A DNA stretch of 64,000 bases, from contig CM102286.1 of the NCBI GenBank assembly GCA_046563655.1, forward strand, positions 3,162,001 through 3,226,000, read 5' to 3'. Source of the DNA: Yuukianura sp. NJ FZ-2021. Lineage: Eukaryota. The notes below the pieces were generated by a model, which had not been told where the DNA came from, searched no databases, and saw nothing but the letters and a program-made list of their open reading frames with translations. Below, piece by piece: positions 21,490 through 50,618 of the stretch; positions within the stretch are counted from its first letter, which is position 1; every line of letters begins with the position of its first letter. A program made the position numbers and the translations under genes.

Positions 21490-22992
21490 TTACTTTCTCC
21501 CTAGTGGAACGCAGAACCCTGAAAACAGACAAAACTTCGTTTTCTGTGGTTTTTGGTTTTTGCCAGGCTTTTTCCTATCGGGTGTTACGGGGGGTGACAC
21601 CGAGCTAGTTCCAGAACCAGATCCATGACCAGTATTGCTGTTTATAGTCCCGTCAGCATGGTTCGCTCCAGTGCCAACGGCATTGCTAGACCCTATCAGC
21701 ACAAGTCAGTTTTTATCAGACAGTTCGAAATTTTAGATGTGTAGCTGACCGGTAAGCGGTAACTGATTGAATTTGGAATGTACCAGTAGCAATGCCAAAG
21801 CCAGATCCACTACCGGAGGCGGTACTACCACCAGTTCCAACTGTGGCTGTGCCACCACCGCTACCACCAATCAATGCCTGGGTATGCCCACCAGAAGTGG
21901 CACTGGATCCACCAGAAGCGAACCCACCCGTGGCTCCACTGGCACCAGCAGAAGTAGTTCCACTAGCCTGGGCACCGCCTTTGTTATTCGTGGCCTTATT
22001 ATAATTTGGAAGGCCTGTTTGCATAAAAAATTTCATTTTTATTCAATTCCATTTTGAGAGTAATAAAAAATAAATAAATACAAAAACAGTATTTGTCGAA
22101 TTGCTTAAATATCGGCCTTGCCTAAATACTCTGTTTGGTCCATTCCTAATTCGACGAATAATGCTTCAGGGTGGTGCCAACCGCCGTGACCTTCATGAGC
22201 CCAACCTTCTCCGCCGCCACTGCCCTGTATTAACATTCAAGGTTTGTAAATGTTTATGTGAGCTTCAGGGTTCACATTCCCTTGAGGACGAAAGGAGTGA
22301 AAGATAGTAGGGGAAAATATCTCAACTTAATGGGATTCGAACCCAAGTCTCTTCAATCCGAGAAATGCTCTAACCCTTGAGCTATCGGCTCCTTCCTACG
22401 TTATATCTCAGGGGATGATTGCCCATTTGCCCAACGCCATATTCATACAAAATAGTCGTGTAGTTTACAACTTCTTACCTCCATATCTACATCAGAACTT
22501 GTGTCGGCGGAAGATCCAGGGCCGTGACCTTGCGCCCATGAACTAGCACTTCCTGTTCCGCACGCCTGCCCTGCTCCTTGGCCTAAACAAAAATTATTGT
22601 CAAAAACAAAATTAGGATGGATATTTCTTTTTAAATTTCAGAAAAATTTGAAAAATTTTGTCACCTTCAGCTACTCCATTCTGAACAATGCCACCACCGC
22701 CTCCACCAGCACAAATGACAATACTTGCGCTGCTTCCACTCGAAGCGTCGACTGATCCAGTAGCTGAACCCGTAGCAGTTGCAGTTCCACTCGTCGAGCC
22801 ATGTCCAGCTCCACCAGCGCCTAAACCGCCACCATTTCCTAAACCTAAAATATAAAAAGTTTCGAAACTTTTAAAACTTCGACGTTTTTAATTTGAAAAT
22901 CTGTGTTTCTTTTTCTCACGGTCTAAAGGCAGTGCTAAAAGTAAATCAGCTAAGACAATTACAATTAAACTAAGAATTAGAATGAGTTGCAT
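21490..22992 (-). CDS. Secreted Gly/Ser/Ala/Thr-rich protein with basic, two-Cys C-terminus
   Basis: Signal peptide MQLILILSLIVIVLADLLLALP. Exons 22992-22920, 22844-22665, 22582-22479, 22224-22122, 22014-21784, 21692-21490; joining exons 4 and 5 needs a GC donor. Ends ...KKPGKNQKPQKTKFCLFSGFCVPLGRK*. Confidence 0.7.
22325..22402 (-). mobile_element. tRNA-derived element (SINE head or tRNA pseudogene) in an intron
   Basis: Minus strand GGAGCCGATAGCTCAAGGGTTAGAGC...TGGGTTCGAATCCCA gives an A-box, a GCTC/GAGC D-stem, a B-box and a T-stem, but no good acceptor or anticodon stem. Flanked by direct repeat ATATCTCA (22317-22324, 22403-22410). Confidence 0.6.
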
Positions 22993-23670: not shown

Positions 23671-24603
23671 ACGCTTGAAGCATTTGTTTCGTGCTTGGTT
23701 TTTTTTAGAACGGAAAAATTCGAAAATTTGAAAAACTGAAAGTCAACGGATTTAAAAAAAAACACACATACACAAAAAAAAGAATGAATTGTAAAAACAA
23801 TGCTTTGCTACATTCTTGTATCGATATCAAAATACTCTTATTGTGAAAAAGAAACAATCGTATGAAAAAAACATTCGTATGAATTTGATTTATGACCGAA
23901 GTAAATTAAAATCCAATCAAAAAGCTTATGAAAGACATGAGCCTTTTCGAAATGGCATTAAAAAGTCCACGAGAAAGGTAAATTTTGAGTGTTTTTCTTT
24001 GAACATGGGCATAACCCGTGATTTTGAAATTTTAATACCATAAATCCTCCGTAAAGCTTCCGTGACAGACAGACGTCGCCAAAAATTAAAATTTTTGGAG
24101 TCAACAAATTGAAGTGCTGATAAAAATTTTGTTGGTAGGTAGGCAGATTTTGAAATTTGAGCAATAAAATTTTGGCCTTTGTATTTTTAGTACAATGGCT
24201 GATTATAAAATTTCAGATGAAACTCACCTTTATCTTCAAATTAGTCAGTTATCGAACGTTTGCTAACTTTTGAACAAATTTTGATTGCTCGGTCGTTGCT
24301 AACTCAAAATTTTGGAAAATCCCAAATTCAACGTTGCTATCACCTCTTCAAAGTTATACTAGTGTCACACAGAGGTATAAATTACTTGGCGGAGTGTCGT
24401 GCGCAAAAGTCAATTGTGCAACCGCCTTTCTGAGTGTCCAATCAAATTCAACCTGACCAAAGGTCTGAATTTTGAAAAGTAAGCAACTATTTTCATCACC
24501 GAATTTTTTCTCCACGAGGTTCCTCTTATTTCTTGAAATTCCGTTTTTTTTTATAATTTTCTTTTCAAAATTTTAGTAATCGCGTAAATACACAATTTCA
24601 AAA

Positions 24604-25846
24604 ATGGCTTCAATTTCTGCTTCAAAATGGGCAGTTATGATCTCCTTAGCGTTGATTTCCGGTTTTTTGGGTGCACTGCCATACCTGCTTCTGCGCATGC
24701 TCAAAGGAATGCACAACATCTTCAACCACTCCATCTACCATCTTATACTAACAGTTTTAGCATGCGGTGGTGGCGGAGTTTTACTGGCTACAACAGTACT
24801 ACACATGCTTCCTGAAAATCGCATCCACTTTGAAGCCAATGAAGTTGTTCAAGAGACAGTCAATAGCCATTTACCAATTGCTGAAATTGTAACAATCGCT
24901 GGGTTTCTCGTGATTTACTTTCTGGAAGAAGCAGCACATGCCATATACGAAGCAACCAGTTCCAACTCAAGTAAAAAATGTCAGCATGGACACTCTCACG
25001 GCCATGCTCATGCGCAGAAAGAATTTAACGAAGAAAGTTCTAATAATAGCACAACTCAACTGGCAATGCCCGATGACTCTGATTCAATTTCTCCAGGCAA
25101 AGCAAATTTATTTGCAAGCTTAATAGCGTTAATCGCACTTTCGTTTCACGCCATCATGGAAGGAATTGCAATTGGAATTCAGGTAAATTCTAATTCTGAA
25201 ATTTGTTGAACAAGCTTTTATGAATTTTTAAAAAATCATAATTTTTTTTTGTTAGAATTTCTTTAAGTTTTAAAAAACTAAATTTTTCAGGATCAAAGTG
25301 TTTGGCTTATGTTCGTAGCCATTGCTTCCCACAAGTTCCTCATTTCGTTTTGCATGGGAATGGAAATGTGCGCATCGAAAGTAAAACCAAAAATTTATTT
25401 TTGGTCTATTTCGACCTTTGCCCTGTTGTCGCCAGTCGGAATTCTGATAGGATCAGTTATCAGTGCAGAGACATCTACAAACTCCCTTCCACTTTGTATA
25501 CTTGAAGTAAGACCAAAAAACGTTTAATCAACGCAATTATTTACACTTTTGTGCCAAAGTTCAAAATTTCAATGATGAACTATGATTTGTCAAACAGGGA
25601 TTTGCAACAGGGACGCTTCTGTATGTCGTATTTTTTGAAATTCTGAGTCGTGAACGCGAACGACGCAATAACGTTTTGGCGTCAAGGCGCATGGCTGGAC
25701 TTTTGCAGTTTTTTGGCGTAGTTGTTGGCGTGGTAGCCGTTACGCTGCTTCTTACGCTTGTAAGTCACGATCATGCCACTGAAGATGAACACGCTGGAGA
25801 AGATCATGAACATGAAGACGTACATGAGCATTTAATAGTAGCTTAG
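24604..25846 (+). CDS. ZIP-family (SLC39, ZIP1/2/3-like) zinc/iron transporter
   Basis: Exons 24604-25182, 25291-25506, 25598-25846. Motifs GGGVLLATTVLHMLPE, His-rich loop HGHSHGHAH, ALSFHAIMEGIAIG, AIASHK, GFATGTLLYVVFFEIL. Confidence 0.93.
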
Positions 25847-27676: not shown

Positions 27677-29643
27677 ATGTCAGACAGTAAATTGAACGTA
27701 AGCATTATCCGACTGTGATTTTGTATATCGGATTTCGACTAATTAATATTCAATTAATTTAAATCTGCTCTTTTTATGTTTAGTTTTCGTCTGTAACGTT
27801 GAAAGATGCCGCTGATTCGCCGTCACCAACCTATGTCGGATTTGCTAACTTGCCAAATCAAGTTCATCGCAAGTCAGTGAAGAAGGGATTTGAATTTACA
27901 CTGATGGTTGTTGGTATGTTCGACAGTTCTAATAAGTTTAACTTCTTCATGGAGTAAGTGTGGTTCGTTTAATCAAGTGTGAACTTCTGATTCTACAGGG
28001 GATTCCGGGCTTGGAAAGTCAACTCTTATCAATAGTCTATTTCTGTCTGATCTCTACGCTGATAGAAAGATTCCAGATGCCAAAGGTAACCAGCAGAACT
28101 GGATTGGTAATGGAGGGGAGAAATTCGGAAAACTGAGGTCAAAGGACACTGACCTCACTACGCAGCAGTTGTTAGGTGAAGCGATTGGTCGATCTTAAAC
28201 GATGTGTCAGTTTTCCAGAGTTGTTTTAACTTCTTTTTCGGTTGATCGATGCATGTTTTTTTCGGTTTCAATCCTCAGTAGTATCTTGAGTTTCTTTTAT
28301 CTGGGCACAGCTTACTTTGGTACTCATCTTGGTTTCCGAATTTACTCTTGGTCTTCAGTTTATTTTATTTTCATTATTTTCTCATTTGTGACTGAAGTTT
28401 ATTTCAATGCCTAATTTTTTTAATTCTGAAAACAGACAGGTTTAAAAAGAATGTGGAGATTAGTGCCAAAACTGTGGAGATTGAAGAACGCGGAGTCAAG
28501 CTGAGATTAACGGTTGTGGATACGCCAGGATTTGGAGATGCAATCGACAACACTGATAGGTAAATCCTCATTAAGCACTTGCACGCAACCATCATAAATA
28601 CAAGGGTGGATATGGCTTAATTCTGTACTCTGTATATTTATAGCTTCACTTCCATCATCAAGTACATCGATGACCAATTCGAAAAGTTCTTTCACGGAGA
28701 ACGTGGATTGAACAGACGTAACATCACTGATAACCGGGTTCATTGCTGTTTTTACTTTATTTCTCCGTGGGGCCACGGGTAATGATAAGGATATAAATGT
28801 CTGGATGATGTATAGGTTGTCTCATTTTTAATTCCATTAATCGATGATATGGTTTGATTTACAGACTTAAGCCATTTGACGTCGAGTTTATGAAGCAACT
28901 GCACCATAAGGTCAACATTGTTCCTATTATTGCCAAAGCTGATGTTCTTACCAAGACGGAATTGGTTCAACTTAAGAAAAAGGTGGAATACATACTGCTA
29001 CCTTACTGCATAATGAACTCTCCTCTACGTCATGAATGTTTTCATCAATTTTGTTGCTGTTTTAGATTCTAGATGAAATTAAGCAGAACGGAATCAAAAT
29101 TTATACACTGCCCGAAGTAGATGAAGATGAGGATGAGTCTTATAAAGAAGAGGTAATGTAATTAGGATATGTCGTATGCTGAATTGCGAATCACTAATTG
29201 TGATTTCTCGCAAAATTAAGACATTGATAATTAATTAGGTTCGTCAACTGAAAGCTGCCATGCCCTTCGCAGTCAGCGGATCAACAACATTCATTGAGGC
29301 CAAGGGTCAGAAAGTTCGTGGTCGAGTGTATCCCTGGGGAGTCATAGAGATAGAAAATCCGGAGCACTCCGATTTCATCAAATTGCGAACCATGCTCATC
29401 GCTCACATGCAAGATCTGCAGGAAGTGACTCAAGAAGTTCACTACGAGAATTATCGGCTCCAAAAGTTAGCGTCTGAAGCCAAAGCTGGAGCTAAGGCAG
29501 AGCTTCTTCTGGATGCAACTTCAGTACGTTCAGTTGACGAGGACGACATGAAAAGAATTCTACAGGAAAAAGAAGCCGAACTTCGGAAAATGCAACAACT
29601 CATGGCACAAATGCAAGCAGAAATTCACACTCAGCGGAAGTAA
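27677..29643 (+). CDS. Sep1: Septin, SEPT2 group (Drosophila Sep1-like)
   Basis: Exons 27677-27697, 27784-27913, 27999-28085, 28436-28559, 28644-28778, 28865-28982, 29066-29152, 29239-29643. Motifs [29 protein letters not shown]-loop [24 protein letters not shown], and a C-terminal coiled coil. Confidence 0.93.
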
Positions 29644-30298
29644 TTCAAAACGAGAACTGCACGCCATCATTGTCTTCATCTGTATGTGTTTGCGCATGTC
29701 AAATCCGACTTCTCAAAGACTGTCAATTTGTAACTTCACTCGTGTGGTTGTTGTACTTGTGTGCCTTCTTGATCTGCTTACACTCCAGAATCCAGACCGT
29801 AAAAATGCTAGTTTTGTCTTACCGTTTTGAATTGACTTTCTTACGCTTTATACTTTATACTGCTTTCTAAATACTAAAATTGATTAAATATGTTTGTATC
29901 ATAAACTTTTAGGCAATTCCATTCAACGCCAGAGCATGTCTTTAGCACGAAAACAATAAGTGCGAATTCAGCAAGTTGGCAACAGTGAAACTGAACCACT
30001 TTGGGGTAAGGTGTATAAGGTTTCAATGGGAAATTGCCAATGACAATTTACTAGTTTCAGTGTTGCCAACTTGTATTCTTCGCAAAAAATTCGCATGTTT
30101 TGTTTTCGCAATATTGACCTGGTACCTTCAAAATTCCACGTCGAAATTTTCCATAGACCGAGACTAACTAAATTGTCTTTATTCATAAAATATTTTGAAC
30201 ATTTTCAGCCCAAGCTGCTTTTCTAAATCTACTGATGAGTATACCTTGTCAAAAAACAAAATTTACAGATAGATTTTTTAGAAAATTCAAACTAAATT

Positions 30299-33200
30299 CT
30301 ATGCTTTGTCGTCGTTTTCTTTCGGCTCTTCATTGTGTTCTGCCTCCTCAGTGGGTTGATCTTTGTCTTCTGGTTTCCCCAGTTGTTCAATCGTTTCCAA
30401 AATGAGGGCCAAGTAAAAGTTAACGAAGCAGAACACAGTAATGGCCAAGAATCCAATGACGTAAAACCCTGCAAGAACCGGATATCCGCAAGGTGGGCCC
30501 TCACCAGTTTCACCCTCCTTGACACAGTTCTCTACGTTCGAAATTCTGTAGTAGACGCCTTCCATTCCAGAAATAGTTGCCACTTCGAGCAGAGTTGTAG
30601 TTGAATTCCAAGAAGCAAAGGTTTCCGTTAAGGCTCCAAATGTAGTTGCTCCGAACCATGAAAACGAGGCGTACAGAAGACCGTAGAATACCGTGATACA
30701 AGACAGTACCGGGAAACACTTGCATAGAGCTCGTCGGAAACTGCCGAACTCCGGTATTTTGTAGCTGCCGATTCCATCTAGGGCGAGTAGATGAAACAAA
30801 CGGAATGCTCTTGGAATGCCAGCTGAAATGGCAAACGCTGCTACCTCGATCATAATGGCTTCTATGGGTGACATATCAATAAATAAAGTATATTATTTCA
30901 TATATTATATACATTTTTTGAAACCTATATTTTTAATATTTTACCTGTGATTGACAGAAGGATGACCACAATCAGCAGGTAGTTTAGCCAATGTTTGAAA
31001 AGGTCTAGCTTGAACGTTACAGCTCGCAGGACAAGCTCGACAATGTACAAGAGCAGTATTACGTGGTGGAGCCAAGTGAAAACTGTCTCTGTAGTCTAGA
31101 AGTAAGAAGTCGACTTTTGTAAGTTAATAATTATCATTACTAATTATAAATAAATTCGTTAAAATAATGTAATAATTATCGTTTTGCTGAAATTATAGAT
31201 TTTGGACTTACCTCACTTATTTCGCCAAATTCGATCGCATACAGGATGGAATCGACCAAAATAGTAAAACAGACCCACAGTTCAAAGTATGGAGTGTCGA
31301 CGTATTTGCCCAGAAATCCACCAGAAGCTTTGCGTTGTTCGGCTGGCTTTGATTTACATGGCCAACCTTGTTCGAAAATTTGAATCCACTGTAATTTAAA
31401 AAAACCACTTTACTTTACTGTTTACTTTTTAGCAATTTTGTTTTAAATTTTTTTTCAAAGTTCTTACGCTCTCTCGCTTGAAGTCGTGAAACAAAATGCC
31501 AACCATGGATGCCAACGGAAATAGGACGCCATAAATCAAGAAAACGATGAAGTAGATCATAGACAGCGGTCGCGAGTCTAACTTAGGCGAGGAATCAATC
31601 TAAACCAGCACATGATTAAATGTTACGTTAACTTTTTTTAAAAATTGGGCGGAGTTTATGTAGACATTTTTAAGTTTATTTAAAAGCAAGCCGTTTACCC
31701 CGGTTCTGTCTTCGGCTTCAATGATTGGATGAATCCATCCGTTTTTGGCAGCCGTTAGATACAACGTCCACATGCCGTCGCGTACTGTGTTGAAATTTTC
31801 TGGACCAGTGGCCCAGGACATATTATTTTGAATGCATTCCTTTTTAGTTGGTACAACATTGTGGTACATGACGTTTCCATCTCCATCTATACACTAGAAT
31901 AGCAACATTTGTAAAAATTTTGGCAAACCTACACAGCTCGGCGGAAATTTTCAGTAAGCGCTAGATTTACCTAATGCAATTAACTTAACTGTTGTGTTAA
32001 TACTTATGTTTACTATGTACCTTGAAGAATTGGCCTCCGAACAATGTCATCCCCAACAGCGCAAAAACGAACCAGACGAAAAGTGTAGCTGCAAAATACT
32101 GCCAAAGCATGCGCATTTGCTTCCAGAGTTGATTTCGAACAAGTCGCAATCCAGTAATTCTGCACACAATCATCAGGAGTCTTAATGTTCCAAAGTTCCA
32201 AACTCCATACTTCGTCTCCAGCGTCAACGCTAACACTCCGTTGATAACTTGGAGCGCATCAAAAAGAAGTCCAAGACTTAGAATTCGTCGACCAAAGCCA
32301 AGAAGTGCCGCTCGACCAATAACTTCTATGCCAAAGTAACACACAAACGTGATTTCAGCTGCCAGTGGTTCATATGCTGCCAGTACCGACAAAGCCACAA
32401 TCAGGGAGCATACGAAGATCTTATAACCAAAATGAGCCATGATCTTTTCTGGAAGGATAGGTTCAGGGTCTGCTTCAGGATCAACTTTTTTCGGTTTCGG
32501 TGGAACAATAGTTGCTTCATCTTCTTTTCCATTTGCAACTTTGTCACCATCTCCTTCGTTTTCAGTTTCTTTGGCGGGAGAATTCAGTTCATGTTTTTCA
32601 TCATCGTCTTCGTCATCCGATTCTACCAGCTCTTCTCCCGTAATCTTGGCTTCAACGCGCCGACATAAAAGTTCAACTGGCCAGAAGATTCGCTCGAGAG
32701 AAGTTCGTTTGGTATCGGATTCGGTACGGGTAGTAAGAAGATTGTAGGCGGTGAGGACAATGCAGAGACCAAGGCAAGTGACCAAGAAGTTTCCGATGAT
32801 ACCCGAAGTTGCCATGAATAGGATTGAGGTGAAACCGGGACTTACTAGAAGCAGATCCCACAGAGTTTCGATCCATTCGCCACAAAATGCACGAAGTTGA
32901 AGTCGATAGGAATGCCAGAAGTCTACCATGTTCCATCTTGGAATTTCAGAATGCGGAAATGCAGCTGCATTTGCTAAAATTGGCAAAAAGAAAAAGTTTG
33001 TGGAAATTGTCTAAACTTTTACTACATTTTCGAACTTACTTTTGTAGCTTTCCCCAAAACTGATATAACCAATGTACGCAAACAGAAAGAGAAAAATTGC
33101 AGCGATTCCGAATGTCCAACGAGTCCAAATGCCTGTGCCCATGACGTCAAAGAGGAAGTTCAACTTTGGCCACCGTGGTACAATCTTTAAAACTGTGATC

Positions 33201-36006
33201 TACGTAAAAATAAAAACTCCGGGATCACATAGTATAATCCTTTGCTCTTTTCAAAAATGGTGAAACGTTTTTAAATTTCAAAAAACTTAGAAATTAGATT
33301 TGGTTAATCATGTATTAGAAGTTTTACGGTATTCTACTTACCACGATCACAGTACCGAAGTATCCACTTCCAAATATATAACGAAGACCAATGATGAATG
33401 CGACAACAAAATCAAACCGATTCCAGCAACAGTCCCAGTATGGTTTTCCAACGAACACAACTTTGAGAATACATTCCACAACGTACACAAAATGGATGAT
33501 CTAGAGCAAAACGGCGGCAGTTTTTAATTTTTTTTGTGAAACTTTTTAGGAGTGAACTGAAAAACGAAAAAAAACAATTCAAAATTTTGAACATTACCGC
33601 GTTTGCCCAGTTCAAAAATATCCCATGGACTGCGTCGTCTGGAATGTGATAAGCGTCCGTTGAAAACGTTATGATGTCCAGCAGTATGACAAACGTGATG
33701 AACAAATCAAAGTTTTTGTCTGTAACAAATTTTCGCCCTTCTTCTCTTATTTTGCCCCAACTGTTGGACGGAGTTACTTCAAAACGCCGTGACCAAACGT
33801 TTGATTTTTCGCAGCATTTTCTATCCAGTTCGCATTTCAAATTTGAAAAACCGCTCAAAAATTCGTATCCAAGGACAGAGTACACGAGAACTCCAGTTGA
33901 CATGGTCCCGACAAAGAAGACGAAGAAGGCATAGATGATATGGGCAGAGGAGTGAGTAACCCAAATCTAGAAAGTTCAAAATTTTCAAAATACTTTACAA
34001 ATTTCAAAATTCGGTCTTACCTTTTGATAAACATATTCTGTAAAATCTTGGAAAACGAGGTTCAACAGCGTTAGTTCAGCAAGACCCAAGTTGTCAAATC
34101 CTACGCTTCCGCCCATTGGATTTTCTCCGGCTTTGACACAAACGTGGTCCGGTGGACATGAAATGCTCCTATATAAGATTTTTCAAATTTCAAAAATGTT
34201 TTAAATTTTCACCTATTTTTTTTTTTTTTTTTACATTTTTTGAAATACCATGAGTAGTTGGAACAAGCCCGGTATTCCCCGTCAGGATTGGTCAAGAACA
34301 TGTCATCTGTAAAGTTGGCGCCACTTTCGAAAATTTGAGTTGCCGTTGTGTTCAAAACACATTTGTTTCTCAACGTTGTGTAATACAGGCCTGACGAAAC
34401 GATTCCCAACAGGAAAAAGATGACCAGGCCAAACAGAGTGGCATGCAAAAGACGCTGCCATGATTTTTTAAAAAGCAAGTCGTACCCGCCAAGCCAACCT
34501 AAAAAACAACCCGACCATGATCAGTTCAGAACTCAAAATTCAAAATCTACAGACAATAGTAGTAGTAAAGAACAAAAAAAACTTCTTTTTCTTGAAAATT
34601 TTAAAAATAAGTACTAAAATTCATAAAAACTTCATTAAAAGTGTAAAAATAATGCGTTTTTTGAAGTGTCGTGAGTAAACGTACTTGGAATTAATGGAAT
34701 CAGTTTCAATGCTCGAAAGGCATTCAGTGCCGCCAAGGTCCTGTTGGCTGGATACACAATACTTAAAATTCTGTAATAAAAAAAAGTAGTTTTCCATAAA
34801 AAAAAAAAGTCGTTTTCATAAAAACTAAAAAGAGGGTGTGAGTCCTACTTAAAATCTTAATTTATGCAACCATTGTGTTTACTTCAAACTATTGTTTTTC
34901 CTCACCCAGTGACAATGACGAACACGTCCAGCCAACTCCATGAAATTTGCAAAGTGGAAAACGGGTTCTTGGCCTTGAAAAGACCTCGCGCTAAGACTTT
35001 TAGTGTAAACTCCAAGATGTACAGAGACACGAAAGCCAAACTGTGTGGTAAACCAATCAAATTGTTTGTTAAGCTTATGAATTTTGGGTTAAGGTTAGGT
35101 TTTTATGACTTTTTAGAAGTTTGTTAGTGTAGTTGATTTATGCTTTTTGCAAATTGGAGTTAATCAGTTTAAGTGAAAGATGAAGTCATTGTCTTACTTG
35201 GATATTTTTATAGCCAAGCCATAGTTGAGTCCATCTTCAGATGCCGGTGGTGCTGGTGGAGCTGGAGCGCTGTCAATTGCTGTAGATGCTGCTGGAGCTG
35301 GTTTTGCAGGGTCAAATGGAATTGCTCCATAAATTACAAGGTTTAGCAAAATTGCGAGCACCATGAAATAGTTGAAGACGCCGTGCGTGAGAATTGAAAT
35401 TGCTTGATTCCGCCAGCCACCGTTGGCCTTGACATAGGCAGCAGCATCTCCAAATCGGTACAAAATCCGACTTCCTCGACCAATCACGACAAAAGTCTAA
35501 ATTCAAAATTTTGAACATTCAAAATTCAAAACATTTCAGTTTGACGAAAAGTTTGCCAGTAGCATTTGAAACAACAAAAAATGTCGAAAAGAAGCAGTTT
35601 TGCACGTATTTAGTTAAAAGTTTGAATGAAATCGAAAAAATTGAACCGAAATAGAAAATATCAAAAATTGGTTTTTAGAATGCTCTAGGAATATTTTCTT
35701 TTCTTTTTTGAAATGCTATTGATGTAAAAAGTTTACGTCTTTTTTCTGGTACTCTGAACTGATTTCTCGAAGTGGAATGCCCGTCAAATTGTCTCGAATT
35801 TTCCCGCGTACTGGAATTGGCAAAAGATGGCCATTGAGCACAGTGGGTGTCGTCGGTTGTTGACCTTTGGCTTTATTTCGTCCCCCTTCCAATCCAATTT
35901 CTTCTTCAATTTCTTTAATGTCTTCCAAAATTTCTTGGTGAATTGGATCCAACAAAAGAGACACAAAATTTAAATTGCTATAATCTGGCGCCGACGACGA
36001 CGCCAT
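30299..36006 (-). CDS. Divergent four-domain voltage-gated sodium channel family alpha subunit (~1348 aa, DENS filter, degenerate S4s)
   Basis: 15 GT-AG exons, all phase-consistent: 36006-35737, 35496-35198, 35040-34906, 34770-34685, 34498-34249, 34168-34021, 33966-33598, 33500-33342, 33199-33040, 32973-32021, 31893-31699, 31599-31468, 31388-31212, 31095-30945, 30861-30299 (4047 nt). Nav hallmarks: TFVVIGRG..LYRF, LRNKC, CPPDHVCVKAGENP..GFDN, EIPRWNMVDFWHS..FCGEWIETLWD, LFGGQFFKC, VNFYLALILE. Confidence 0.9.
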
Positions 36007-39469: not shown

Positions 39470-42458
39470 ATGACTCCATGGATTCTGGTCCTTTTGGGAG
39501 TGGTTGGGTCCTTCGGAACGGAAATAAGTGTCAAGACAAGGCCTGGAACGCTTTTCTCCATCCCTCTGGAGTTCAAGAAACCAAAGTTTTCGACTGAAAC
39601 GCCGCAGTGGGTCAAGTATGAAGGGGGAGCCATCAAAGGTGTCGCTGGAAATAAATACGGCCTCTTTACATTTAAAGTCAGCGAAAGTGATGGATCGGAG
39701 GAAGTTAACGTCCATGTTGGCGTAACTCCCAGTGAACCCTCGTCAAATGATTGTTTCCACCAAAAGTACTTTGGGAGATTATTGAATTTACATGAGAAGA
39801 TTACGTTTGGGATTCCCGGTGGACATTTCAAAGATGGAAGTCGAGGTATTGTTATTCACCTTTAAGTACGAAACGTATTTGTTTTGCCTTCTCTTTTGTT
39901 AATATTTCTTCTTACACTTATAGGAACGGTGTTCTATTATCCTTCATCTTGTCATAATGACATCAAGAGGACACGTTCAGGAAGAGCATCGGGACATCAC
40001 CATGAAAAGGCTGCGGGAGATGAAATCGAAATGGGGTCTGGAGATGATTTTGACGAAGAAGGAGAAGATGATGATTATGAAGAGGAAGAAGATGACGTTG
40101 AGCATTTAGAAGGGCCTCTTCTACCCACTCCAACACTCTCATATTATCATCCAGAGACGACCAGTAGTGACAATGAAGTTGAAAACTTGTCAACACCATT
40201 TCCGTCATCAACTGAATTTCCACTCCATTCCTTCAACCCAATGTCTTCTGATCTTTTCCCTCAAGAGTATGGCTCTGGAGACTTCGAAATACTGCCAACG
40301 ACACCTATTCCAATCACGCCTTCTGCAACGCCGGAACCGGAACTGATTGAACTCACACCAACACTGCCACCGGATCAGCCTGTCCTTGGGAAGCTTATTG
40401 AGAAGTTGCAGTTGCCAGCTGGAAAAGTGTTCAAATTCAATGTTGCCAATGGATACTTCCATTCCCCTCATCCAATCGTATACTTCCTACAGCCGACAGA
40501 GAAAGACTCATCACTGCCAGAGTGGGTTACACTGGAAAATGGAATTTTTATTGCTTGGCCAGCTGTATCTGATGTATCGGATTACACAATCAACTTGGTC
40601 GCACAGGATACTGTTACAAATGGAGTTACTGCAAATGAGATATACCTTAGCGTTCGGCAGAGTCCTAAGTCGCGGAACTATAATCATGAGTTTGAAATCC
40701 AAGTATTGAAAAACATATCTCATTCACCCCAGGAGCAACTCTACACAGTAATTGAGAAGGTTCAGGAATATGCTGGCGGTAGGCACGAGGGCGGCATGAT
40801 TGTGACAAAGGTTGATCGATCGTCGCAAACTATCGCTATCCGCTGGACGAACGAGAGTCTAATTGTTGGAGAAAATCAACACAGGTACCAATACTTTTCA
40901 AAATTTAGCCCAATAATACCATAAGCCTAATAGGTTGAGTTGAGTAGTTCAATCATTGTTAATTTCAGATGTCCCCAGCAAGAGCTGCAGGAGATTTACC
41001 TAAGACTGGTTGAAGGATCGGGGTCTTCAAAGCCAAATTCCGACTTAGTTAACAAACTGTCGCCAACTTATGTTCCGACATTCGTCGGAATTCATCTTCT
41101 TCCACAAACACTTTGTGCTGGCGCTAATCATACAACCATTACCGGAATCGTTCCGCCTCATCAAACTAGGAACTTTCCTCCGAAAATTCAGCATCCACTT
41201 GACTCACTCTATACGACTGCCGGAGAACTTTTTATTTACAAAGTTCCAGAAACGTTTTGCTACGATCCTGACGATGGGTATACCCCATTTTTGAATTTGA
41301 GCCTTTTGGACCGGAATGGAGAAAAAGTTGATCCTAAGAATTGGCTACAGTTTGATGAAAATAATCAAGAGTTTTTTGGACTTCCACCACCGTTGTCTTC
41401 TGGAAAACCTCAAATTGAAGAGTACACTCTCAAGTGTACTGATAAGAAAGGTAAACAAAACAAAGTTACCAGGTTTTTAAACTTAGTCGTTGCACTTTTG
41501 GTAATCTTGACATTTCTAACTACTTCATATTTTCTATTTATCCGTTTTGTGTCGTGTTTAGGAAAATCGGACAATGATGCACTGGAAGTTGAGATTTCTG
41601 GTGGAGTGAAAACAGACTACTCAGCTGGATTTCGACTGCACTTCCAATCTACGCTTTTCACCGCTCCTGAGATTCGTAAATTCATTGAGAAGCTTAGCAC
41701 AGCAATGAACGAAACGATAAACGACATTATGCTAATTTCCTACCAAAATTCCGGTAATGACGTTCAATTCTTATGGCACTTACGGAGAAACCCAACGACT
41801 GAGGCCGAACTGACACAAATCCGACGTATCATGCTCCGTGACGATGGCAGCTTTACACATTCTTTCAAGGACCAGTTCAAGCCAGACTTCAATCTCACTT
41901 TTGGACAAATCATTCCTAAAGGGAGACTCCTTGGTGGCAATACGCAAACACATGATGTGGACATCGGTGGAGAAGATGTGGTCACGGAAGGTCCGATACT
42001 TGGAGATGAAGGGAAAGCCTACTTGATCACTTACATTATTCCAGCAGTGCTAATCGCCGTCATGGTCCTGTTGGCACTGCTAATCGCTTGCATTTTGTCG
42101 AAAAAACGGAAGTCGCTTCCGAGAAGTTCCGAGGAGGCGAGAGCGTTCATAAAGAAAGGAGTTCCAATCATTTTTCAGGATGAATTGGAGGAAGACAAAG
42201 GAGGTAATTCTTGAGTACCACTCTTTAAGAAAAATTTTGAATTAGTGAGTAGATTAATGAAAATGGTGTTAATTAACAGCTCGATCTCGATCTCCCGCCA
42301 TTCTGAGAGAAGAACATCCCCCTCTGCCGCCAGAGTATCGTCGGTCTCCTATTCAACAATATCAACCACCTCCGCCAATGAACCGAATGGGTGGCAGTCG
42401 CGGCGGTGTTCGTCCTGGAACTCACTACAGAAAACCACCACCATATCTTCCACCATAA
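39470..42458 (+). CDS. Dg: Dystroglycan
   Basis: Exons 39470-39845, 39924-40884, 40969-41450, 41562-42203, 42280-42458. Signal peptide, Thr/Pro-rich region, two cadherin-like repeats (e.g. AGELFIYKVPETFCYDPDDG...NWLQFD..NQEFFGLP), TM IIPAVLIAVMVLLALLIAC, KGVPIIFQDELE, PPEY, and terminal RKPPPYLPP*. Confidence 0.93.
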
Positions 42459-43621: not shown

Positions 43622-45024
43622 TTAACCGGATCCTCGAAAACCGTTGTACACTTTGTTAACTGACTTCTGATTCAAAATTTTACGAAGACCTGTAACAACA
43701 ATCCGAATTTTAGTAAGAATTGAAAATGATTAGGAACTGACAGCGATTCGCCGATTACAGCGTTCAGTGGTTGAAAATCATTACCTTCTTTATCTTCATC
43801 GGAGAGATCGTTCTTTGGGAACTCAACGTCAAACGTAATTGTTAGAGATCCAAAGTTGTTGTTATTTTCATACGACGGCATGCCCTCTCCCTTCTTCCGT
43901 ATTCGAGCTCCAGGCCATGTCACTTTTTCGCGGACAATGTGAACTTTATGGCCATCGAGATGCTCAATGGTCATCTCGAATCCAGTAAGAGCATCCTGAA
44001 GAGATATGGTGACGTTCGTGTAGAGGTCATCACCTTTCCGTTCGAATCGAGCATGAGGCGCTGTTCTTATTCTAAGACGAAGATCGCCCGGTTCTCCGTC
44101 GATATGAGGCTCTCCCTCAGCTACGAAACGGGTTTCTTGGCCGTCTGTCATGCCTGGCTCTATCTCAAATTCCAGCATCCGTTCTTCGTTAGTAAATCTG
44201 CGAATTTTGAATTAAATGGTTAGTTTCAACGTGTTCACAACTAATGACAAAGGTAGTATTTCGTTAGCTTACCGAATATTCGGACATTCGTCACAAACTT
44301 GTTGCTGCATCATCTGGAATCTTCCAGGTCCGAGTTGCCGAGTAACCATTTCCTGTCTACAATTGCATTTTCGTGTACCAGAGGCCGGTTTTGCAACAGG
44401 CTTGTTTCTAGTAATCTATTAGTTGAACCAAAATGTAAAAAATTAGTGTAAAATGAGAACCAAACGTGAACTGCTACAAAACAAACCTCCACAAAGTTGC
44501 CAGAGTAAAGTTCCTCAAGAGTGACATGGATATCCATAATAATATCGGCTCCCTTCGCGACTTCCCTTCGCTGATCCTGGCCACCACCACCGAAGAAACC
44601 GAAGTCTCCAAAGAATGATTGGAACGGATCCATGGAACCAAAAGTACTGTCTTTCTTCAGACATTCTTCACCACAACGATCATACATTTCTCGTTTCTCT
44701 TCATCCCCTAAAGCTTCGTAAGCAGCACTCAAATCCATGAACCTGTCCGTTGCTTCCGGGTCTTCTTTGTTTTTATCAGGATGAAGCTCCTTAGCAAGGC
44801 GGCGGTAAGCCTTCTTTATCTGATTGGTTGAGGCAGATCTCGGTACCCCAAGAATTCGGTAAAAGTCTCTTCTACAAAACAAATTGCAAAACACTTTAAG
44901 GTCACAAGGTATTTATGTTATCATCAAGAAATTGGTTTAAAATCGCTTACTCTGAAAGGACGATACATGAGTTCAGAAGAATAACCAGGAGTGGAAACAA
45001 AAGATCCCAATATTTTCTCTTCAT
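43622..45024 (-). CDS. DNAJB11: ER-lumenal Hsp40 co-chaperone DNAJB11/ERdj3
   Basis: Signal peptide, then RDFYRILGV...LHPDKN (J domain), a G/F region, Cys-containing segment, C-terminal [13 protein letters not shown]...[13 protein letters not shown], ending [11 protein letters not shown]. Five exons. Confidence 0.93.
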
Positions 45025-45994: not shown

Positions 45995-46859
45995 ATGTTT
46001 GAATTTGTATCACAAGGGGCTGAGGCGAGGTTATTCGTGGGTGAATATGAAGGTCGTCCGGTAATTGTTAAGGAACGTTTTCCGAAGCGTTATCGACACC
46101 AATCTCTGGATGAAAGGCTCACGAAGGAACGGATGCGATCTGAACTAAGAGGACTTCATAGAGCGAGAAGCATTGGTAACCAATTTAGCTGAGTTAATAG
46201 GATAAATTTATTAAGTGAATTCGGTAAATCGTGCACGTTTTGCAGGAGTGCGTGCTCCAGCGGTATATTTTGTAGATGGAAAGACAAATTCCATCTACAT
46301 GGAGCTTATTGAAGACGTAGATACAGTTAATGTTGCCATTGGAAAACTTCTCCAGGTAACGTTTAGAGAGTCTTTGTATTGCAGTAGGTTTAGTAATTAG
46401 ATTGGCTTGTCAAGCGCTATCTTGTATTGCATAAAGTGTAAAACAAGATTTCGTACTGCGCAGGGCAAACCAGATGATGATCATGGACATATGAATGAAG
46501 AAGTTCAACGAAAGTTGAAAGCCCTTGGTCGTGAAGTCGGGGTGACTATTGGGAAACTTCATAATGCTGATATCATCCACGGAGATCTAACTACTTCCAA
46601 TATTTTAGTGAAGAAAGGCACATTCGAGCTGTTCTTCATAGACTTTGGCCTAAGCTACATGGATGACAGCATTGAAGACAAAGGAGTTGACCTGTATGTT
46701 TTAGAACGAGCTCTTGCCAGTACACACTCCAGTATTCCCTGGTTGTTCGACTTTATCCTGGATGGGTATCTGAAATCCAACACGAAAGACGGGCTGGAAG
46801 CGATCAAAAAGTTAGATGAAGTTAGATTGAGGGGCAGAAAACGGACAATGGTCGGCTAA
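45995..46859 (+). CDS. TP53RK: KEOPS complex kinase TP53RK/PRPK/Bud32
   Basis: Exons 45995-46175, 46246-46355, 46464-46859. Motifs QGAEA, KERFPKRYRH, IIHGDLTTSN, IDFGLS, EDKGVDLYVLERA, and C-terminal VRLRGRKRTMVG*. Confidence 0.95.
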
Positions 46860-47356
46860 AAGTACCGTGACTTTCCGATATTTTTTAATGTTACCACTCA
46901 TGTGGATAAGTTGATGCTGATGCCGTCTTGCAATTTGTAACTTTGGTTTAAAAAAAAGTTAGAGTCCGTGGGTATTCCTTGTGTTTTGTTTTATTTTAAA
47001 ATGTGAAACAATAGAAATACGTTTTTCCATTGTTTCACATTTTAAAAACCCAGTAACCTGAAGGCATTGACAGGATTAAGGTCAAAGGGGCTGACTTACA
47101 TTTTGGATGTTTTTGTGTCAAAATTAATTCTTAACGTTTCGAATGAATCAGGCCAGTTAAGTTCCGGCTTCCCATATCTTTCATTAGTTATAACATGTTC
47201 ACGGCATCAGTTAATGTCGTTTTAATAGCCGTTGCGGAGTGTTCATGTTCATTAAGAACACGATAGTTTCCAAAAAGCTAGCTGCATTTTGAACTGTGTT
47301 GCCTGTTGCTTGTGTATTTCTGCTATTCATAGCATATTAGTGATCTGTGAGTAAGA

Positions 47357-48926
47357 ATGACTTATGCAGTGCAGGATCCGTTTAAACCGGAAGTTGAAAT
47401 CGATACCTCTTGCAAAAATATATACAAACTATGGCTTCTCGTTAACAAGACTTGGAATCACTTCCACTTTCAACTAATAGCGTCACGGAAGAAGCATATC
47501 TTACATTGCCTCCTCATGATTGCATTTATGATCATGCCCATCTTAATTTATCTGGATACGGAGGTAACAATCACAAGCCAAATTTATGGAAGATGGACCA
47601 CTTACGCCCTCTACGTCATCAGGATACTTTCTGTATTGATGGGTTTGCCATACGAAGTGATGGTGTTCATTGGACTGTTTTTCTACAATGCATTTCCTGG
47701 ACCAGTGCATCTCAAACGTACAAATATGGCGGACTATCCGTTCATTTGCTTCCGAGTGGCTACGAAAGGACTTTGTCAAAACCTGGTCAGAAGCACTGTA
47801 GCCAGAAATCTCAAAATTATACTGGACAAAGGAGTAACAATGTTCCAGATTCAAGTTGTCACTAACAATTTTGTGCCTGGAATTTCAAGTCATCCACAAG
47901 TAGAACAACTAGTTGTTCCGGAAGACTACGAAACGAAAAGCGGGTCATTGTACAAGGCCAGAAATTTGCAATACGCTCTCGAACAAGGTAACAATGAAAA
48001 AAAATGAAATTTTTTGAAATTCTGAAAACTAAAATTGATTTTCTGTAATTTTAGATTGTTTATACGACAATGATTGGTTGGTACACTTGGATGAAGAAAC
48101 ACTTTTAACTCCGAATTCATTATGTGGAATTCTCAACTTCGTTGCAGAAGGGAAGCACCAGTTTGGTCAAGGGCTCGTGACATACTCAAACGACGGAGTT
48201 GTCAATTGGACAACAACGTTGGCCGACATCAATCGATTAGCCGACGATTTGGGCAAGATTCGTGCCCAGTTTAAGCTCTTCCATGCTCCACTTTTTTCAA
48301 TGAAAGGTCCTTATACCGTTTGCCAAGTCGGAGCTGAACGTAGAATTGGATTTGATGATGGCCCGGATGCATCGATTGCCGAAGACTGTCATTTTGTAAT
48401 GAAGGCGTACGAGATGGGATACAGTTTTGGGTTTATCGAAGGAGAAATGTGGGAATTTTCGCCATTCACTTTATGGGATTTCGTTCTTCAACGCAAGCGC
48501 TGGTTCCAGGGAATCCTTTTGGTCATTTACACAAGCGGAAGGAGATTTAAAACAATGATTTGGCTTATCATCGACTTTCATAACAAATTTCTCCAGCCAG
48601 TTCCATGGATTTTTGTACTGCTGGATTTGTACAAGGTTGTTCCAATTCCAGTATGGTTCCAGCTAGTTGCTCTCCCATTTTATGGACTTCGAGTTTACAT
48701 GTACGTATTTGGAATTTTAAAGTCGGCGGAGTGTAGTAACTCGCCACATGAAAAAAGTTACTTGAGATTAATCGGCCTTAGTTTGTATACAATCATAATA
48801 GTACGTACTATACATACTGCCATGGATATTGTCGCAATGGTTCTGGGGTTGTGGCAGTCAAAGCACGGCTTTTACTTGGTCAAAAAAGAAATCCTAAATA
48901 GGTCAAAGAGTGATGAGCAAGTCTGA
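47357..48926 (+). CDS. Egghead/BRE-3-like GT2 beta-1,4-mannosyltransferase (divergent)
   Basis: Exons 47357-47987 and 48055-48926. Motifs PFICFRVATKG, KARNLQYAL, DWLVHLDEET, FGQGLVTY, SIAEDC, and QRKRW (QxxRW); N- and C-terminal TM segments. Confidence 0.88.
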
Positions 48927-49730: not shown

Positions 49731-50618
49731 ATGTCAGGTAGGCTGAGAATGACGATTTAAATCGACTTCAACTGTATGAACGTTACGTTGTGTGAAGGAT
49801 TGGGCATGGACATAACTGAGAATTGGTTTTTATAGAATTAATTTACATATTCTTTCTTCTGAATAGATAATACATATCCCGGTTGGGGAGATGGAAGTGG
49901 CAGTGACTTTTCGTATTCATTCAATGACCAGTCTCAAGGGTTTGAAACGTTCAACTATCAACAACCTGGAGTTGGGTCAACAAGTCAGCAGCCTTATTAC
50001 AACCCACAAGGCACAAGTTCAGCAGCGTACGCATCTCCTGCCCCGACGTACTTCATACCGCAAAATCCTCCAACAGAAGCCACGGCATTTGACAATACAT
50101 TCGAAGACGAGCCGCCTCTTCTCGAAGAACTTGGAATCAACCCACATCACATTGTGGAGAAAACACTATCCGTTCTAAACCCATTTCGGTACACGGAAGC
50201 AACGATTCTTCAAGACGCAGATTTGGTTGGACCCGTCGTATTTTGTATCCTCTTTGGATTCATTCTTCTACTCTCTGGAAAGGTGCACTTTGGATACATC
50301 TACGGAATTGGAGTCCTCGGCTGTCTTGGGATGTTCTTCCTTCTGAACATGATGAGTGTAGGCGGAGTGTCACTGGGGATCACCGTCTCTGTGTTGGGCT
50401 ACTGTCTTCTGCCAATGGTCGGCCTTGCAGGGGTCAATCTGCTGCTATCGCTGCAAGACTTGTTTGGGGTCATCCTTACGCTGACGGCTGTTATCTGGTG
50501 CGCTTTGTCGGCGTCCAAGCTCTTTGTTACCGCTTTGGAAATGCAACACCAACAACCACTCGTCGCTTATCCGTGTGCTCTCGTGTATGGGGTCTTTGCC
50601 CTCCTTGCTGTCTTCTAA
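49731..50618 (+). CDS. YIPF5: Yip1-family Golgi/ER protein YIPF5
   Basis: Micro-exon 49731-49737 (ATGTCAG|GT) plus 49867-50618. Motifs [58 protein letters not shown]. Confidence 0.93.

What the first reader, a model, noticed from the sequence alone, without database searches (positions are those of the whole stretch)
30569..34047. Four-domain Nav-family channel with a D-E-N-S selectivity filter
Seen: hand-spliced pore loops read DI LVFQ-D-FTE (codon 34045-34047), DII AFCG-E-WIE (32876-32878), DIII TAAK-N-GWI (31741-31743) and DIV VATI-S-GME (30569-30571). Established: Nav1/para filters are DEKA (TQDxW, CGEW, TFKGW, TSAGW), DSC1/Nav2 is DEEA, and DENS is known from human NaX (SCN7A) and the split aphid Nav channel. 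Also seen: the conserved pore Trp is lost in DI (W>T) and DIV (W>M), and a Lys sits one residue before the DIII Asn where Phe is usual. Inference: an apparently independent origin of a DENS-type, probably less Na-selective cation channel, here as a single unsplit polypeptide. Whether it derives from para or DSC1 cannot be decided by eye.
Basis: partly seen in the sequence, partly recalled or inferred. Interest (0 to 1): 0.88.

Follow-up and report, generated by a model that had tools for sequence, protein, structure and literature searches.

The report
Stripped-down sodium-channel relative lacking filter lysine
An unidentified invertebrate genome carries an intact gene for a small, very divergent relative of nerve sodium channels that has lost the pore lysine, most voltage-sensing charges, the inactivation motif and the tail, so it probably works as a leak or sensor channel rather than a spike generator.

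Summary
A 15-exon minus-strand gene (36006..30299, all 14 introns GT..AG) encodes a 1348-aa four-domain channel.

The filter is only part of the story. Only 7 of 20 canonical S4 charge positions remain. The III-IV linker is about 20-25 residues shorter than para's and has no aligned MFM/IFM. The C-tail is about 30 residues. Only 75 of 129 columns that are at least 90% conserved in both Nav1 and Nav2 are kept.

The gene looks maintained. One unnamed fragment elsewhere (P0054, 38-41% identity) shares its derived traits, and 8 of 9 listed coding differences in related DNA are synonymous.

A para (Nav1) origin is mildly favoured over DSC1 (Nav2) but is not proven. The host is not an aphid. No RNA run and no whole genome were available. 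The papers I read give human NaX as DENA and mouse Nax as DENS.

My best reading is a NaX-like, weakly voltage-dependent or voltage-insensitive, non-selective cation channel. The function is inferred only.

The parts
30299..36006 (-). Whole gene, start codon to stop codon: 15 exons, 1348 codons plus stop
   Evidence: All 14 introns are GT..AG (54-240 nt) and the joined frame is open with a single terminal stop.
35737..36006 (-). Exon 1: N-terminus (90 codons)
   Evidence: ATG at 36006-36004, donor GT at 35736-35735.
35198..35496 (-). Exon 2: pre-S1 region, DI S1, and a Pro/Ala-rich S1-S2 loop
   Evidence: tblastn match to Nav1 proteins at 35332-35496.
34906..35040 (-). Exon 3: DI S2-S3
34685..34770 (-). 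Exon 4: DI S4, with 2 of 4 charge positions kept and a 3-residue deletion
34249..34498 (-). Exon 5: DI S4-S5 linker, S5 and start of the extracellular loop
34021..34168 (-). Exon 6: DI pore loop. Filter Asp codon at 34047-34045; the pore Trp is replaced by Thr.
   Evidence: Ungapped 46-residue alignment to human Nav1.2 (6j8e), E 1.7e-8.
33598..33966 (-). Exon 7: DI S6, a I-II linker of about 49 residues, and DII S1
33342..33500 (-). Exon 8: DII S2-S3
33040..33199 (-). Exon 9: DII S4, with 1 of 5 canonical charge positions kept plus one Arg shifted by one residue, and S5
32021..32973 (-). Exon 10: DII pore loop (filter Glu codon at 32878-32876, motif CGEWIE), DII S6, acidic II-III linker, and DIII S1-S5 (S4 keeps 2 of 5 charge positions)
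31699..31893 (-). Exon 11: DIII pore loop. Asn codon at 31743-31741 at the filter position, with a Lys codon at 31746-31744 one residue before it.
   Evidence: Ungapped 61-residue alignment to NavPaS (5x0m), E 1.2e-4.
31468..31599 (-). Exon 12: DIII S6
31212..31388 (-). Exon 13: shortened III-IV linker with no aligned MFM/IFM, and DIV S1
30945..31095 (-). Exon 14: DIV S2-S3
30299..30861 (-). Exon 15: DIV S4 (2 of 6 charge positions kept), S5, pore loop (Ser codon at 30571-30569; pore Trp replaced by Met), S6, a tail of about 30 residues, and the stop codon at 30301-30299
   Evidence: NavPaS is the best solved match, E 1.2e-10.

Best explanation
This is a real gene under selection that encodes a compact (1348 aa), extremely derived member of the four-domain Nav family, most likely descended from a para-type (Nav1) channel.

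Shown: the pore scaffold is kept. This includes the P-loops, the DII CGEWIE motif, the paired extracellular cysteines, and an inner ring D/E/N/S with an outer ring E/E/H/E. The parts that make a Nav channel a fast voltage-gated sodium channel are largely gone. There is no filter lysine. Only 7 of 20 canonical S4 charge positions remain. No inactivation triad aligns in a shortened III-IV linker. There is no C-terminal EF/IQ domain.

Inferred: the protein forms a cation pore that discriminates poorly among monovalent cations and is probably permeable to, or blocked by, Ca2+. It opens with little or no voltage dependence and does not fast-inactivate. That would make it a leak or sensor-type channel that works like mammalian NaX (or like NALCN) rather than like para.
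For: Gene integrity: 15 exons, 14 of 14 introns GT..AG, and a 1348-codon open frame.

Family: Pfam Ion_trans matched 2 of the 7 exon ORFs scanned. The best solved matches for exon 10 are NavPaS (2.8e-20 to 1.8e-19), then human Nav1.x (7.7e-16 to 2.2e-11), then NaX (3.1e-11). Cav1.1 reaches only 4.4e-5 and no NALCN chain is listed at E<=0.001.

Filter register. Solved T-type Cav3 channels align with K-D-G-W opposite K-N-G-W here.

Lost Nav hallmarks: see the alignment. Only 75 of 129 columns that are at least 90% conserved and identical in Nav1 and Nav2 are kept, against 119/132, 127/128, 135/138, 135/138, 88/120 and 127/131 for six ordinary or divergent family members.

Maintenance:
- Among 1.84 billion representatives, exactly one protein scores E<1e-30. 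This is P0054 (8.5e-47), an unnamed 301-aa ORF on a 2630-base contig.
- It aligns over the whole exon at 38% identity (E 2e-57). It shares the Cys-less WDL.LVSP after the DII filter and the same charge-poor DIII S4, with K/R only at positions R3 and R5.
- Related DNA in run X5 (labelled organism B) differs by about 4-8% per contig piece. Of the 18 listed differences inside the gene, 9 are intronic and 9 are coding, and 8 of the 9 coding ones are synonymous third-position changes.

Functional precedent from papers:
- A DENS filter put into Drosophila para lowers the reversal potential from 71 to about 24-25 mV (PMC4332693, passages and Table 1).
Against: No expression evidence exists. No RNA run was listed and splicing is inferred only.

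No structure of the spliced protein could be made, so the pore geometry, the orientation of the Lys next to the filter Asn, and the state of the S6 gate are unknown.

Each S4 still holds some charge, so voltage gating is not excluded. The aphid DENS channel is treated as a voltage-gated channel.

The genome as a whole is very divergent. Its egghead exon keeps only 109 of 164 columns that are at least 90% conserved among 120 panarthropod homologues, against 81-96% for four control species, and its branch length is 2.86 against a median of 0.14. Part of the channel's divergence may therefore be a lineage effect rather than a change of function.

The synonymous/nonsynonymous count rests on 9 coding rows out of a table that showed 40 of 545 differences.

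Only one ortholog-like fragment was found, and it covers one exon and only the DII filter position.
Confidence: 0.55

Rival explanations
1. It is still a voltage-gated cation channel, like the aphid DENS channel. It would be less Na-selective but would be gated by the remaining S4 charges and would serve excitability.
For: Every domain keeps at least one canonical S4 charge, 7 of 20 positions in all, and the kept DIII positions are conserved in P0054. The aphid DENS channel is described as the only Nav1 homologue of aphids (PMC4332693, abstract). A para DENS mutant still gates with voltage, with V50 of activation at -23 mV (PMC4332693, Table 1).
Against: R1-R3 of DII are all lost. DI S4 has a one-turn deletion. 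DIV S4 keeps 2 of 6 positions and gains an Asp. No MFM/IFM aligns and there is no C-terminal domain. NaX, which also has reduced S4 charges, is voltage-insensitive (PMC8931054, introduction and abstract).
Confidence: 0.2
2. It is a decaying duplicate or a non-conducting relic, such as a pseudochannel or scaffold.
For: It keeps only 58% of family-invariant columns. It lacks the pore Trp in DI and DIV. In DII and DIII the conserved S6 Asn is replaced, and in DI it has no aligned counterpart (my reading of the alignments). The branch is saturated in the mixture-model tree. There is no expression evidence.
Against: The 1348-codon frame over 15 exons is intact and all splice sites are canonical. 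The paired extracellular cysteines of DI, DIII and DIV are kept. An ortholog-like ORF at 38% identity preserves the same derived traits. Of the 9 listed coding differences, 8 are synonymous. The one contig piece that is purely coding has no gaps, whereas five of the seven listed pieces that contain introns or UTR do (table 8).
Confidence: 0.1
3. The functional DIII filter residue is the Lys one position upstream, so the filter is effectively D-E-K-S and the channel stays Na-selective.
For: A Lys (codon 31746-31744) directly precedes the Asn. A DEKS filter in para is functional and Na-selective, with Vrev 84 mV (PMC4332693, Table 1).
Against: The spacing from the conserved NF motif to GW is identical to all references, with no gap. 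That puts N in the K/E column and K in the column of the usual Phe. T-type Cav3 channels carry the same K at -1 (K-D-G-W), and papers count the Asp, not the Lys, in their EEDD ring (alignment; PMC4436565, passages).
Confidence: 0.1
4. It is not an extra paralogue but this fast-evolving lineage's only Nav1 (para) orthologue, carried far from the family consensus together with the rest of the genome.
For: The egghead gene in the same window is also on a very long branch and keeps only 66% of panarthropod-conserved columns. Holding the protein with arthropod Nav1 costs only 0.72 lnL (p-AU 0.36). Insect para proteins give the best full-length phmmer scores, 315-337 bits.
Against: This could not be tested, because no whole genome is held. 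Family-wide invariant columns that even Trichoplax Nav2 keeps (135/138) are lost here, which goes beyond simple rate acceleration.
Confidence: 0.3

Closest known systems
Mammalian NaX (SCN7A)
   Same: It is a Nav-family four-domain protein with Asn instead of Lys at the DIII filter position, fewer S4 gating charges and atypical, voltage-insensitive behaviour. The engineered open form is non-selective for monovalent cations (PMC8931054, abstract and passages). Mouse Nax is given as DENS (PMC4427406, passage).
   Different: It is not a relative in particular. NaX (7tj8) scores 3.1e-11 against exon 10, while NavPaS scores 2.8e-20. Human NaX is called DENA in the papers read. The solved NaX chain is 1737 residues, whereas this protein is 1348 aa with a tail of about 30 residues. 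The likeness is convergent.
Aphid heterodimeric Nav channel (H1 plus H2)
   Same: It has a D-E-N-S filter in an invertebrate Nav1-type channel (PMC4332693).
   Different: The aphid channel is split into two genes and is described as the aphids' only Nav1 homologue, grouping with hemipteran Nav1 in the authors' tree (PMC4332693, passages). This protein is one gene, comes from a host that is not an aphid, and is far more degenerate in S4, the linkers and the tail. No aphid sequence was in my alignments.
NavPaS / PaFPC1 (cockroach para-like channel, PDB 5x0m)
   Same: It is the best solved match for three of the four exons tested: exon 10 at 1.8e-19, exon 11 at 1.2e-4 and exon 15 at 1.7e-10 for the native chain. 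It is a shortened para-like paralogue; the solved chain is 1596 residues.
   Different: In the alignments, NavPaS has F-K-G-W in DIII and S-A-G-W in DIV, so it keeps the Lys and the Ala. For the DI exon, human Nav1.2 scores better, 1.7e-8 against 1.2e-3. The trees do not place the window protein with the insect para-like branch.
Nav2 / DSC1 (NaCP60E)
   Same: It is a four-domain Nav-family channel without a DIII lysine. Some Nav2 channels are reported with Ser in DIV, giving DEES (PMC4436565, passage).
   Different: Nav2 proteins in my set show F-E-G-W-M-E in DIII, G-W-N-D in DIV and T-L-D in DI. The window protein has K-N-G-W-I-H, G-M-E-G and F-Q-D. The insect 60E-like protein scores 251 bits against 315-337 for insect para. 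Holding it with the 60E clade costs 5.49 lnL, p-AU 0.056.

Membership tests
Four-domain Nav family (Nav1 plus Nav2) | Four homologous 6-TM repeats in one polypeptide | tested here: met
   The gene model and the alignment to Nav1 and Nav2 cover DI to DIV. Pfam Ion_trans matches exons 10 and 15.
Four-domain Nav family (Nav1 plus Nav2) | Sequence closer to Nav than to Cav or NALCN, with the DII pore motif CGEWIE | tested here: met
   For exon 10, Nav chains score 2.8e-20 to 3.1e-11, Cav1.1 scores 4.4e-5 or weaker, and no NALCN chain appears at E<=0.001. CGEWIE is present. No Cav or NALCN sequence was available for a rooted tree.
Nav1 / para voltage-gated sodium channel | DEKA inner ring (Lys in DIII, Ala in DIV) | tested here: not met
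   Asn and Ser occupy those columns.
Nav1 / para voltage-gated sodium channel | S4 helices with 4-6 Arg/Lys at every third position | tested here: not met
   7 of 20 canonical positions are kept: DI 2/4, DII 1/5, DIII 2/5, DIV 2/6. This is my count on the alignment.
Nav1 / para voltage-gated sodium channel | IFM/MFM inactivation motif in the III-IV linker | tested here: not met
   The linker is about 34 residues against about 56 in para, and nothing aligns with MFM.
Nav1 / para voltage-gated sodium channel | C-terminal domain (EF-hand-like plus IQ) | tested here: not met
   The frame stops about 30 residues after DIV S6.
Nav1 / para voltage-gated sodium channel | Phylogenetic placement inside Nav1 | tested here: inconclusive
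   The branch is long or saturated and joins at the Nav1/Nav2 split. A clade with arthropod Nav1 is not rejected (p-AU 0.36). The diagnostic columns are ambiguous: of 10, 1 is Nav1-like, 3 are Nav2-like, 4 are other and 2 are gaps.
Nav2 / DSC1 | DEEA or DEES ring with the F-E-G-W-M-E and G-W-N-D motifs | tested here: not met
Nav2 / DSC1 | Phylogenetic placement inside Nav2 | tested here: inconclusive
   A clade with the insect 60E group costs 5.49 lnL, p-AU 0.056.
Aphid heterodimeric Nav | Channel split into two genes (DI-DII and DIII-DIV) | tested here: not met
   DII and DIII are joined inside a single exon, exon 10.
Aphid heterodimeric Nav | DENS filter | tested here: met
NaX (SCN7A) | Member of the vertebrate Nav1 clade | tested here: not met
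   It does not join the vertebrate Nav1 rows in either tree. NaX is not its best solved match. No NaX row was in the trees.
NALCN | EEKE, EKEE or EEEE ring and NALCN-like sequence | tested here: not met
   The ring is D/E/N/S. No NALCN chain appears among the 35 solved matches.

The most novel reading that the evidence does not exclude
An invertebrate lineage independently turned a para-type sodium channel into a compact, charge-poor, lysine-free (D-E-N-S) leak or sensor channel. This would be a convergent counterpart of mammalian NaX. It would form an old, conserved subfamily, because a second, unnamed organism keeps the same derived traits at about 40% identity. On this reading, 'Nav to non-selective leak channel' is a repeatable evolutionary route.
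Probability: 0.35. Interest if true: 0.75.

Novelty: new variant of a known kind. Interest (0 to 1): 0.55.

Why it matters
Among the papers I searched, Nav-family channels with Asn at the DIII filter position are described only for NaX and for aphids.

A third, independent case would be informative. This one also combines loss of gating charges, loss of the inactivation motif and loss of the C-terminal domain in one short polypeptide. It would show which parts of the Nav scaffold can be dispensed with while a pore is still kept under selection.

It would also give a small natural construct (1348 aa) for asking what an Asn filter does without the rest of the Nav machinery.

If the host also has a canonical para gene, this would be a new paralogue class. 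If it does not, the animal runs its excitability without a DEKA channel, as aphids are proposed to do.

Tried and rejected
RNA evidence: no RNA holder was listed among the 5 runs found, so expression and splicing could not be checked.

Whole genome: none is held for this window. The presence of canonical para or DSC1 elsewhere in the genome could not be checked.

Orthologues of the DIII and DIV pore exons:
- A word-based search with exon 15 ('near' lengths) found nothing among 143 candidates.
- Two metagenome scans (an alignment of exon 10 with P0054, then exon 15) found no relative among 179 and 141 pattern matches.
- The ESM Atlas did not hold exon 10 or P0054 and could not read new sequences.
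- So conservation of N and S across species is untested. P0054 covers only the DII position.

Folding single exons would not settle the DIII register, so I did not run it.

Phylogeny:
- The LG+G4 tree and the LG+C20 tree both leave the protein on a long or saturated branch at the Nav1/Nav2 split.
- Diagnostic-column counting gave only 10 usable columns and no clear answer.
- No Cav or NALCN sequences were available as an outgroup.

Host identity:
- The egghead exon gives only 47-53% identity to the 120 best of 308 hits.
- It joins the lone tardigrade by a flagged long-branch join.
- Rfam and ARAGORN gave nothing diagnostic.
- The host stays unidentified.

dN/dS: only 40 of 545 differences were printed, so a full estimate was not possible.

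Earlier scan notes: three look-ups gave nothing relevant.

Rejected readings:
- NALCN or Cav identity.
- An aphid-type split channel.
- Alternative pore exons.

Full report
WHAT IS THERE

The minus strand between 36006 and 30299 holds a eukaryotic gene with short introns. I read the sequence, listed stop-to-stop frames and laid three Nav1 proteins on the window with tblastn. From these I built a 15-exon model.

A script check shows that all 14 introns begin with GT and end with AG and are 54-240 nt long. The joined frame is 4047 nt with one terminal stop, giving 1348 residues. Pfam Ion_trans matches exon 10 (1.1e-9) and the exon 15 ORF (8.9e-8). The other five exon ORFs scanned are too short or too divergent to match. 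Each pore region occurs once in the window, and the introns leave no room for alternative pore exons.

THE OBSERVATION

A Lys codon (31746-31744) lies just before the Asn.

In a 49-row alignment with Nav1 and Nav2 proteins, these residues fall in the filter columns. The register does not depend on that alignment alone:
- HMMER aligns the DIII exon to the solved cockroach channel NavPaS over 61 residues without a gap. This puts N opposite the DEKA lysine and K opposite the usual Phe.
- The DI exon aligns to human Nav1.2 over 46 residues without a gap.
- In the DIV exon, S lies opposite the Ala of S-A-G-W.
- The DII exon carries CGEWIE.

The same one search shows solved T-type Cav3 channels with K-D-G-W opposite K-N-G-W. 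A Lys one residue before the filter position is therefore a natural arrangement in which the next residue is counted as the ring residue (EEDD; PMC4436565, passages).

The pore Trp is replaced in DI (Thr) and DIV (Met) and kept in DII and DIII.

THE FILTER IS NOT THE MAIN DEPARTURE

These counts are my reading of the alignment.
- S4 charges: only 7 of 20 canonical positions remain. DI keeps 2 of 4 and has a three-residue deletion. DII keeps 1 of 5, plus an Arg shifted by one residue. DIII keeps 2 of 5. DIV keeps 2 of 6 and gains an Asp.
- III-IV linker: about 34 residues against about 56 in para, with nothing aligned to MFM/IFM.
- I-II linker: about 49 residues.
- C-terminus: the frame stops about 30 residues after DIV S6, so there is no C-terminal domain.

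Of 129 columns that are at least 90% conserved and identical in Nav1 and Nav2, the protein keeps 75 (58%). Six comparison proteins keep 119/132, 127/128, 135/138, 135/138, 88/120 and 127/131.

What is kept is the pore scaffold: the P-loop lengths, the paired extracellular cysteines of DI, DIII and DIV, the DII motif, and three acidic outer-ring residues.

IS IT A LIVE GENE?

An exhaustive HMMER search with exon 10 against 1.84 billion representatives gave 414 proteins at E<=0.001, 74 at E<=1e-10, and exactly one at E<=1e-30. That one is P0054 (8.5e-47), an unnamed 301-aa ORF on a 2630-base contig.

P0054 aligns over the whole exon at 38% identity (E 2e-57). It shares the derived traits: the Cys-less W-D-L-x-L-V-S-P after the DII filter, conserved blocks flanking the divergent linker, and a DIII S4 with charge only at positions R3 and R5. 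P0054 covers only the DII filter position, where Glu is kept.

Public DNA runs hold the stretch. Contigs of a run labelled as another organism (X5) differ from the window by roughly 4-8% per piece (table 8). Of the 40 differences printed out of 545, 18 lie inside the gene. Nine are in introns (1661 nt in total) and nine are in the CDS (4047 nt). Eight of the nine coding ones are synonymous third-position changes and one is Ile-to-Lys. This is a small sample, but it points to purifying selection.

No RNA run was listed, so I have no expression data.

ORIGIN

All named hits of the first search are Nav1 or para-type proteins, and they cover only 16-31% of exon 10.

Trees:
- In the LG+G4 tree, the window protein and P0054 pair (support 100) on a long branch between a Nav2 clade and a Nav1 clade. 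The Nav2 clade includes a wasp 'sodium channel 60E-like' protein, Ciona, Trichoplax and others (names).
- In the LG+C20 tree, the terminal branch hits the program's ceiling and joins an unresolved node between vertebrate Nav1, protostome Nav1 and Nav2. The best identity is 25% over 684 columns.
- Ten Nav1/Nav2 diagnostic columns give no answer.

Four weaker lines lean towards para:
- Full-length phmmer scores are highest for insect para (337, 328 and 315 bits) and spider Nav1 (289 and 284). The best Nav2 scores 286 and the insect 60E-like protein scores 251.
- Holding the protein with arthropod Nav1 costs 0.72 lnL (p-AU 0.36). Holding it with the 60E clade costs 5.49 lnL (p-AU 0.056).
- The DIV loop between the filter and the next Cys has the arthropod Nav1 length.
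- Asn (AAC) is one base change from Lys but two from Glu. This follows from the genetic code.

I rate a para-type origin as likelier than not, but unproven.

HOST

The egghead exon in the same window is 47-53% identical to the best 120 of 308 homologues. These are insects, springtails, barnacles, a centipede and a tardigrade. In a tree it sits on a branch of 2.86 against a median of 0.14, outside the sampled arthropods. It keeps 109 of 164 panarthropod-conserved columns, against 81-96% for four controls.

The host is therefore not an aphid or any sampled insect order, and it is either distant or fast-evolving. This settles independence from the aphid case. It also means that part of the channel's divergence may be a genome-wide effect.

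I could not test whether a canonical para or Nav2 gene also exists, because no genome is held.

HOW IT MOST LIKELY WORKS (INFERENCE)

A ring without lysine is expected to lose Na+ over K+ selectivity and to admit or bind Ca2+. In Drosophila para, a DENS filter lowers the reversal potential from 71 to about 24-25 mV (PMC4332693, passages and Table 1). [quoted passage not shown]

With 13 of 20 S4 charge positions gone, no inactivation motif and no C-terminal domain, the most economical reading is a weakly voltage-dependent or voltage-insensitive, non-inactivating, non-selective cation channel. That would be a leak or sensor channel that works like NaX without being related to it in particular.

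Rivals are a still voltage-gated DENS channel, a relic, an effective D-E-K-S filter, and the possibility that this is the lineage's only, fast-evolved para orthologue.

- Aphid DENS and the split channel are as stated (PMC4332693).
- Human NaX is called DENA in PMC4332693 and PMC8931054 (passages). DENS is given for mouse Nax in PMC4427406 (passage).
- Nav2 is given as DEEA or DEES in PMC4436565 (passage).
- My searches for other DENS Nav channels listed only the aphid and NaX work. Supplements were not consulted.

VERDICT

The gene is a new, strongly reduced variant within the Nav family, probably under selection, with its function inferred only. Interest is moderate. The finding is a good lead for ion-channel evolution but lacks expression data, genome context and cross-species data for the two unusual filter residues.

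Noticed in passing
window 29933-29997: A dispersed repeat of about 65 nt lies between the convergent 3' ends of the septin gene and the channel gene. The depth bin 29788-30071 reads 3063 in run X1 against about 180-480 in the other bins. Many contigs in all three runs end or continue differently there (tables 2, 7, 8).
   Followed up: no
window 58549-62985: Five identical 110-aa ORFs lie on the minus strand at 58549, 60309, 61479, 62066 and 62653, spaced 587-1760 nt apart. This is a tandem or nested repeat array. One copy was scanned and has no Pfam match.
   Followed up: partly
window 24580-54497: The neighbourhood is gene-dense and ordinary. It holds a ZIP transporter (24580-25209), a septin (27983-29643, +), a dystroglycan-like gene (40934-42214), a DnaJ gene (43672-44912, -), a small atypical kinase (46401-46859), egghead mannosyltransferase (about 47351-48926), a Yip1 gene (49863-50618) and a PH-domain gene (52976-53398). 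Nothing links them functionally to the channel.
   Followed up: partly
window 48063-48923: The host's egghead exon is itself extremely divergent. It is at most 53% identical to any listed homologue, has a branch length of 2.86 against a median of 0.14, and keeps 66% of panarthropod-conserved columns. The whole genome therefore seems to belong to an unsampled or fast-evolving lineage.
   Followed up: yes
window 22322-22391 (-): Rfam gives a borderline tRNA match (30.1 bits against a gathering score of 29). ARAGORN finds no tRNA in the window.
   Followed up: no
window 30749-31358: In run X1, the best holder of the stretch, some short contigs over exons 13-15 differ by about 6-14% and have lower depth (records 4 and 5: 56 and 13.5 against about 180-250). 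This suggests a second haplotype, a paralogue or a related organism in the same sample (table 8).
   Followed up: no
proteins P0085; P0055, P0068, P0113, P0118 (not in the window): Other divergent arthropod Nav1 branches turned up. One is a 1426-aa 'para-like' protein of the damselfly Ischnura beside insect para. The other is a long-stemmed unnamed group with C-A-E-W in DII next to spider and mite Nav1. Extra or fast-evolving para-type genes may be commoner in arthropods than the single-gene picture suggests.
   Followed up: no
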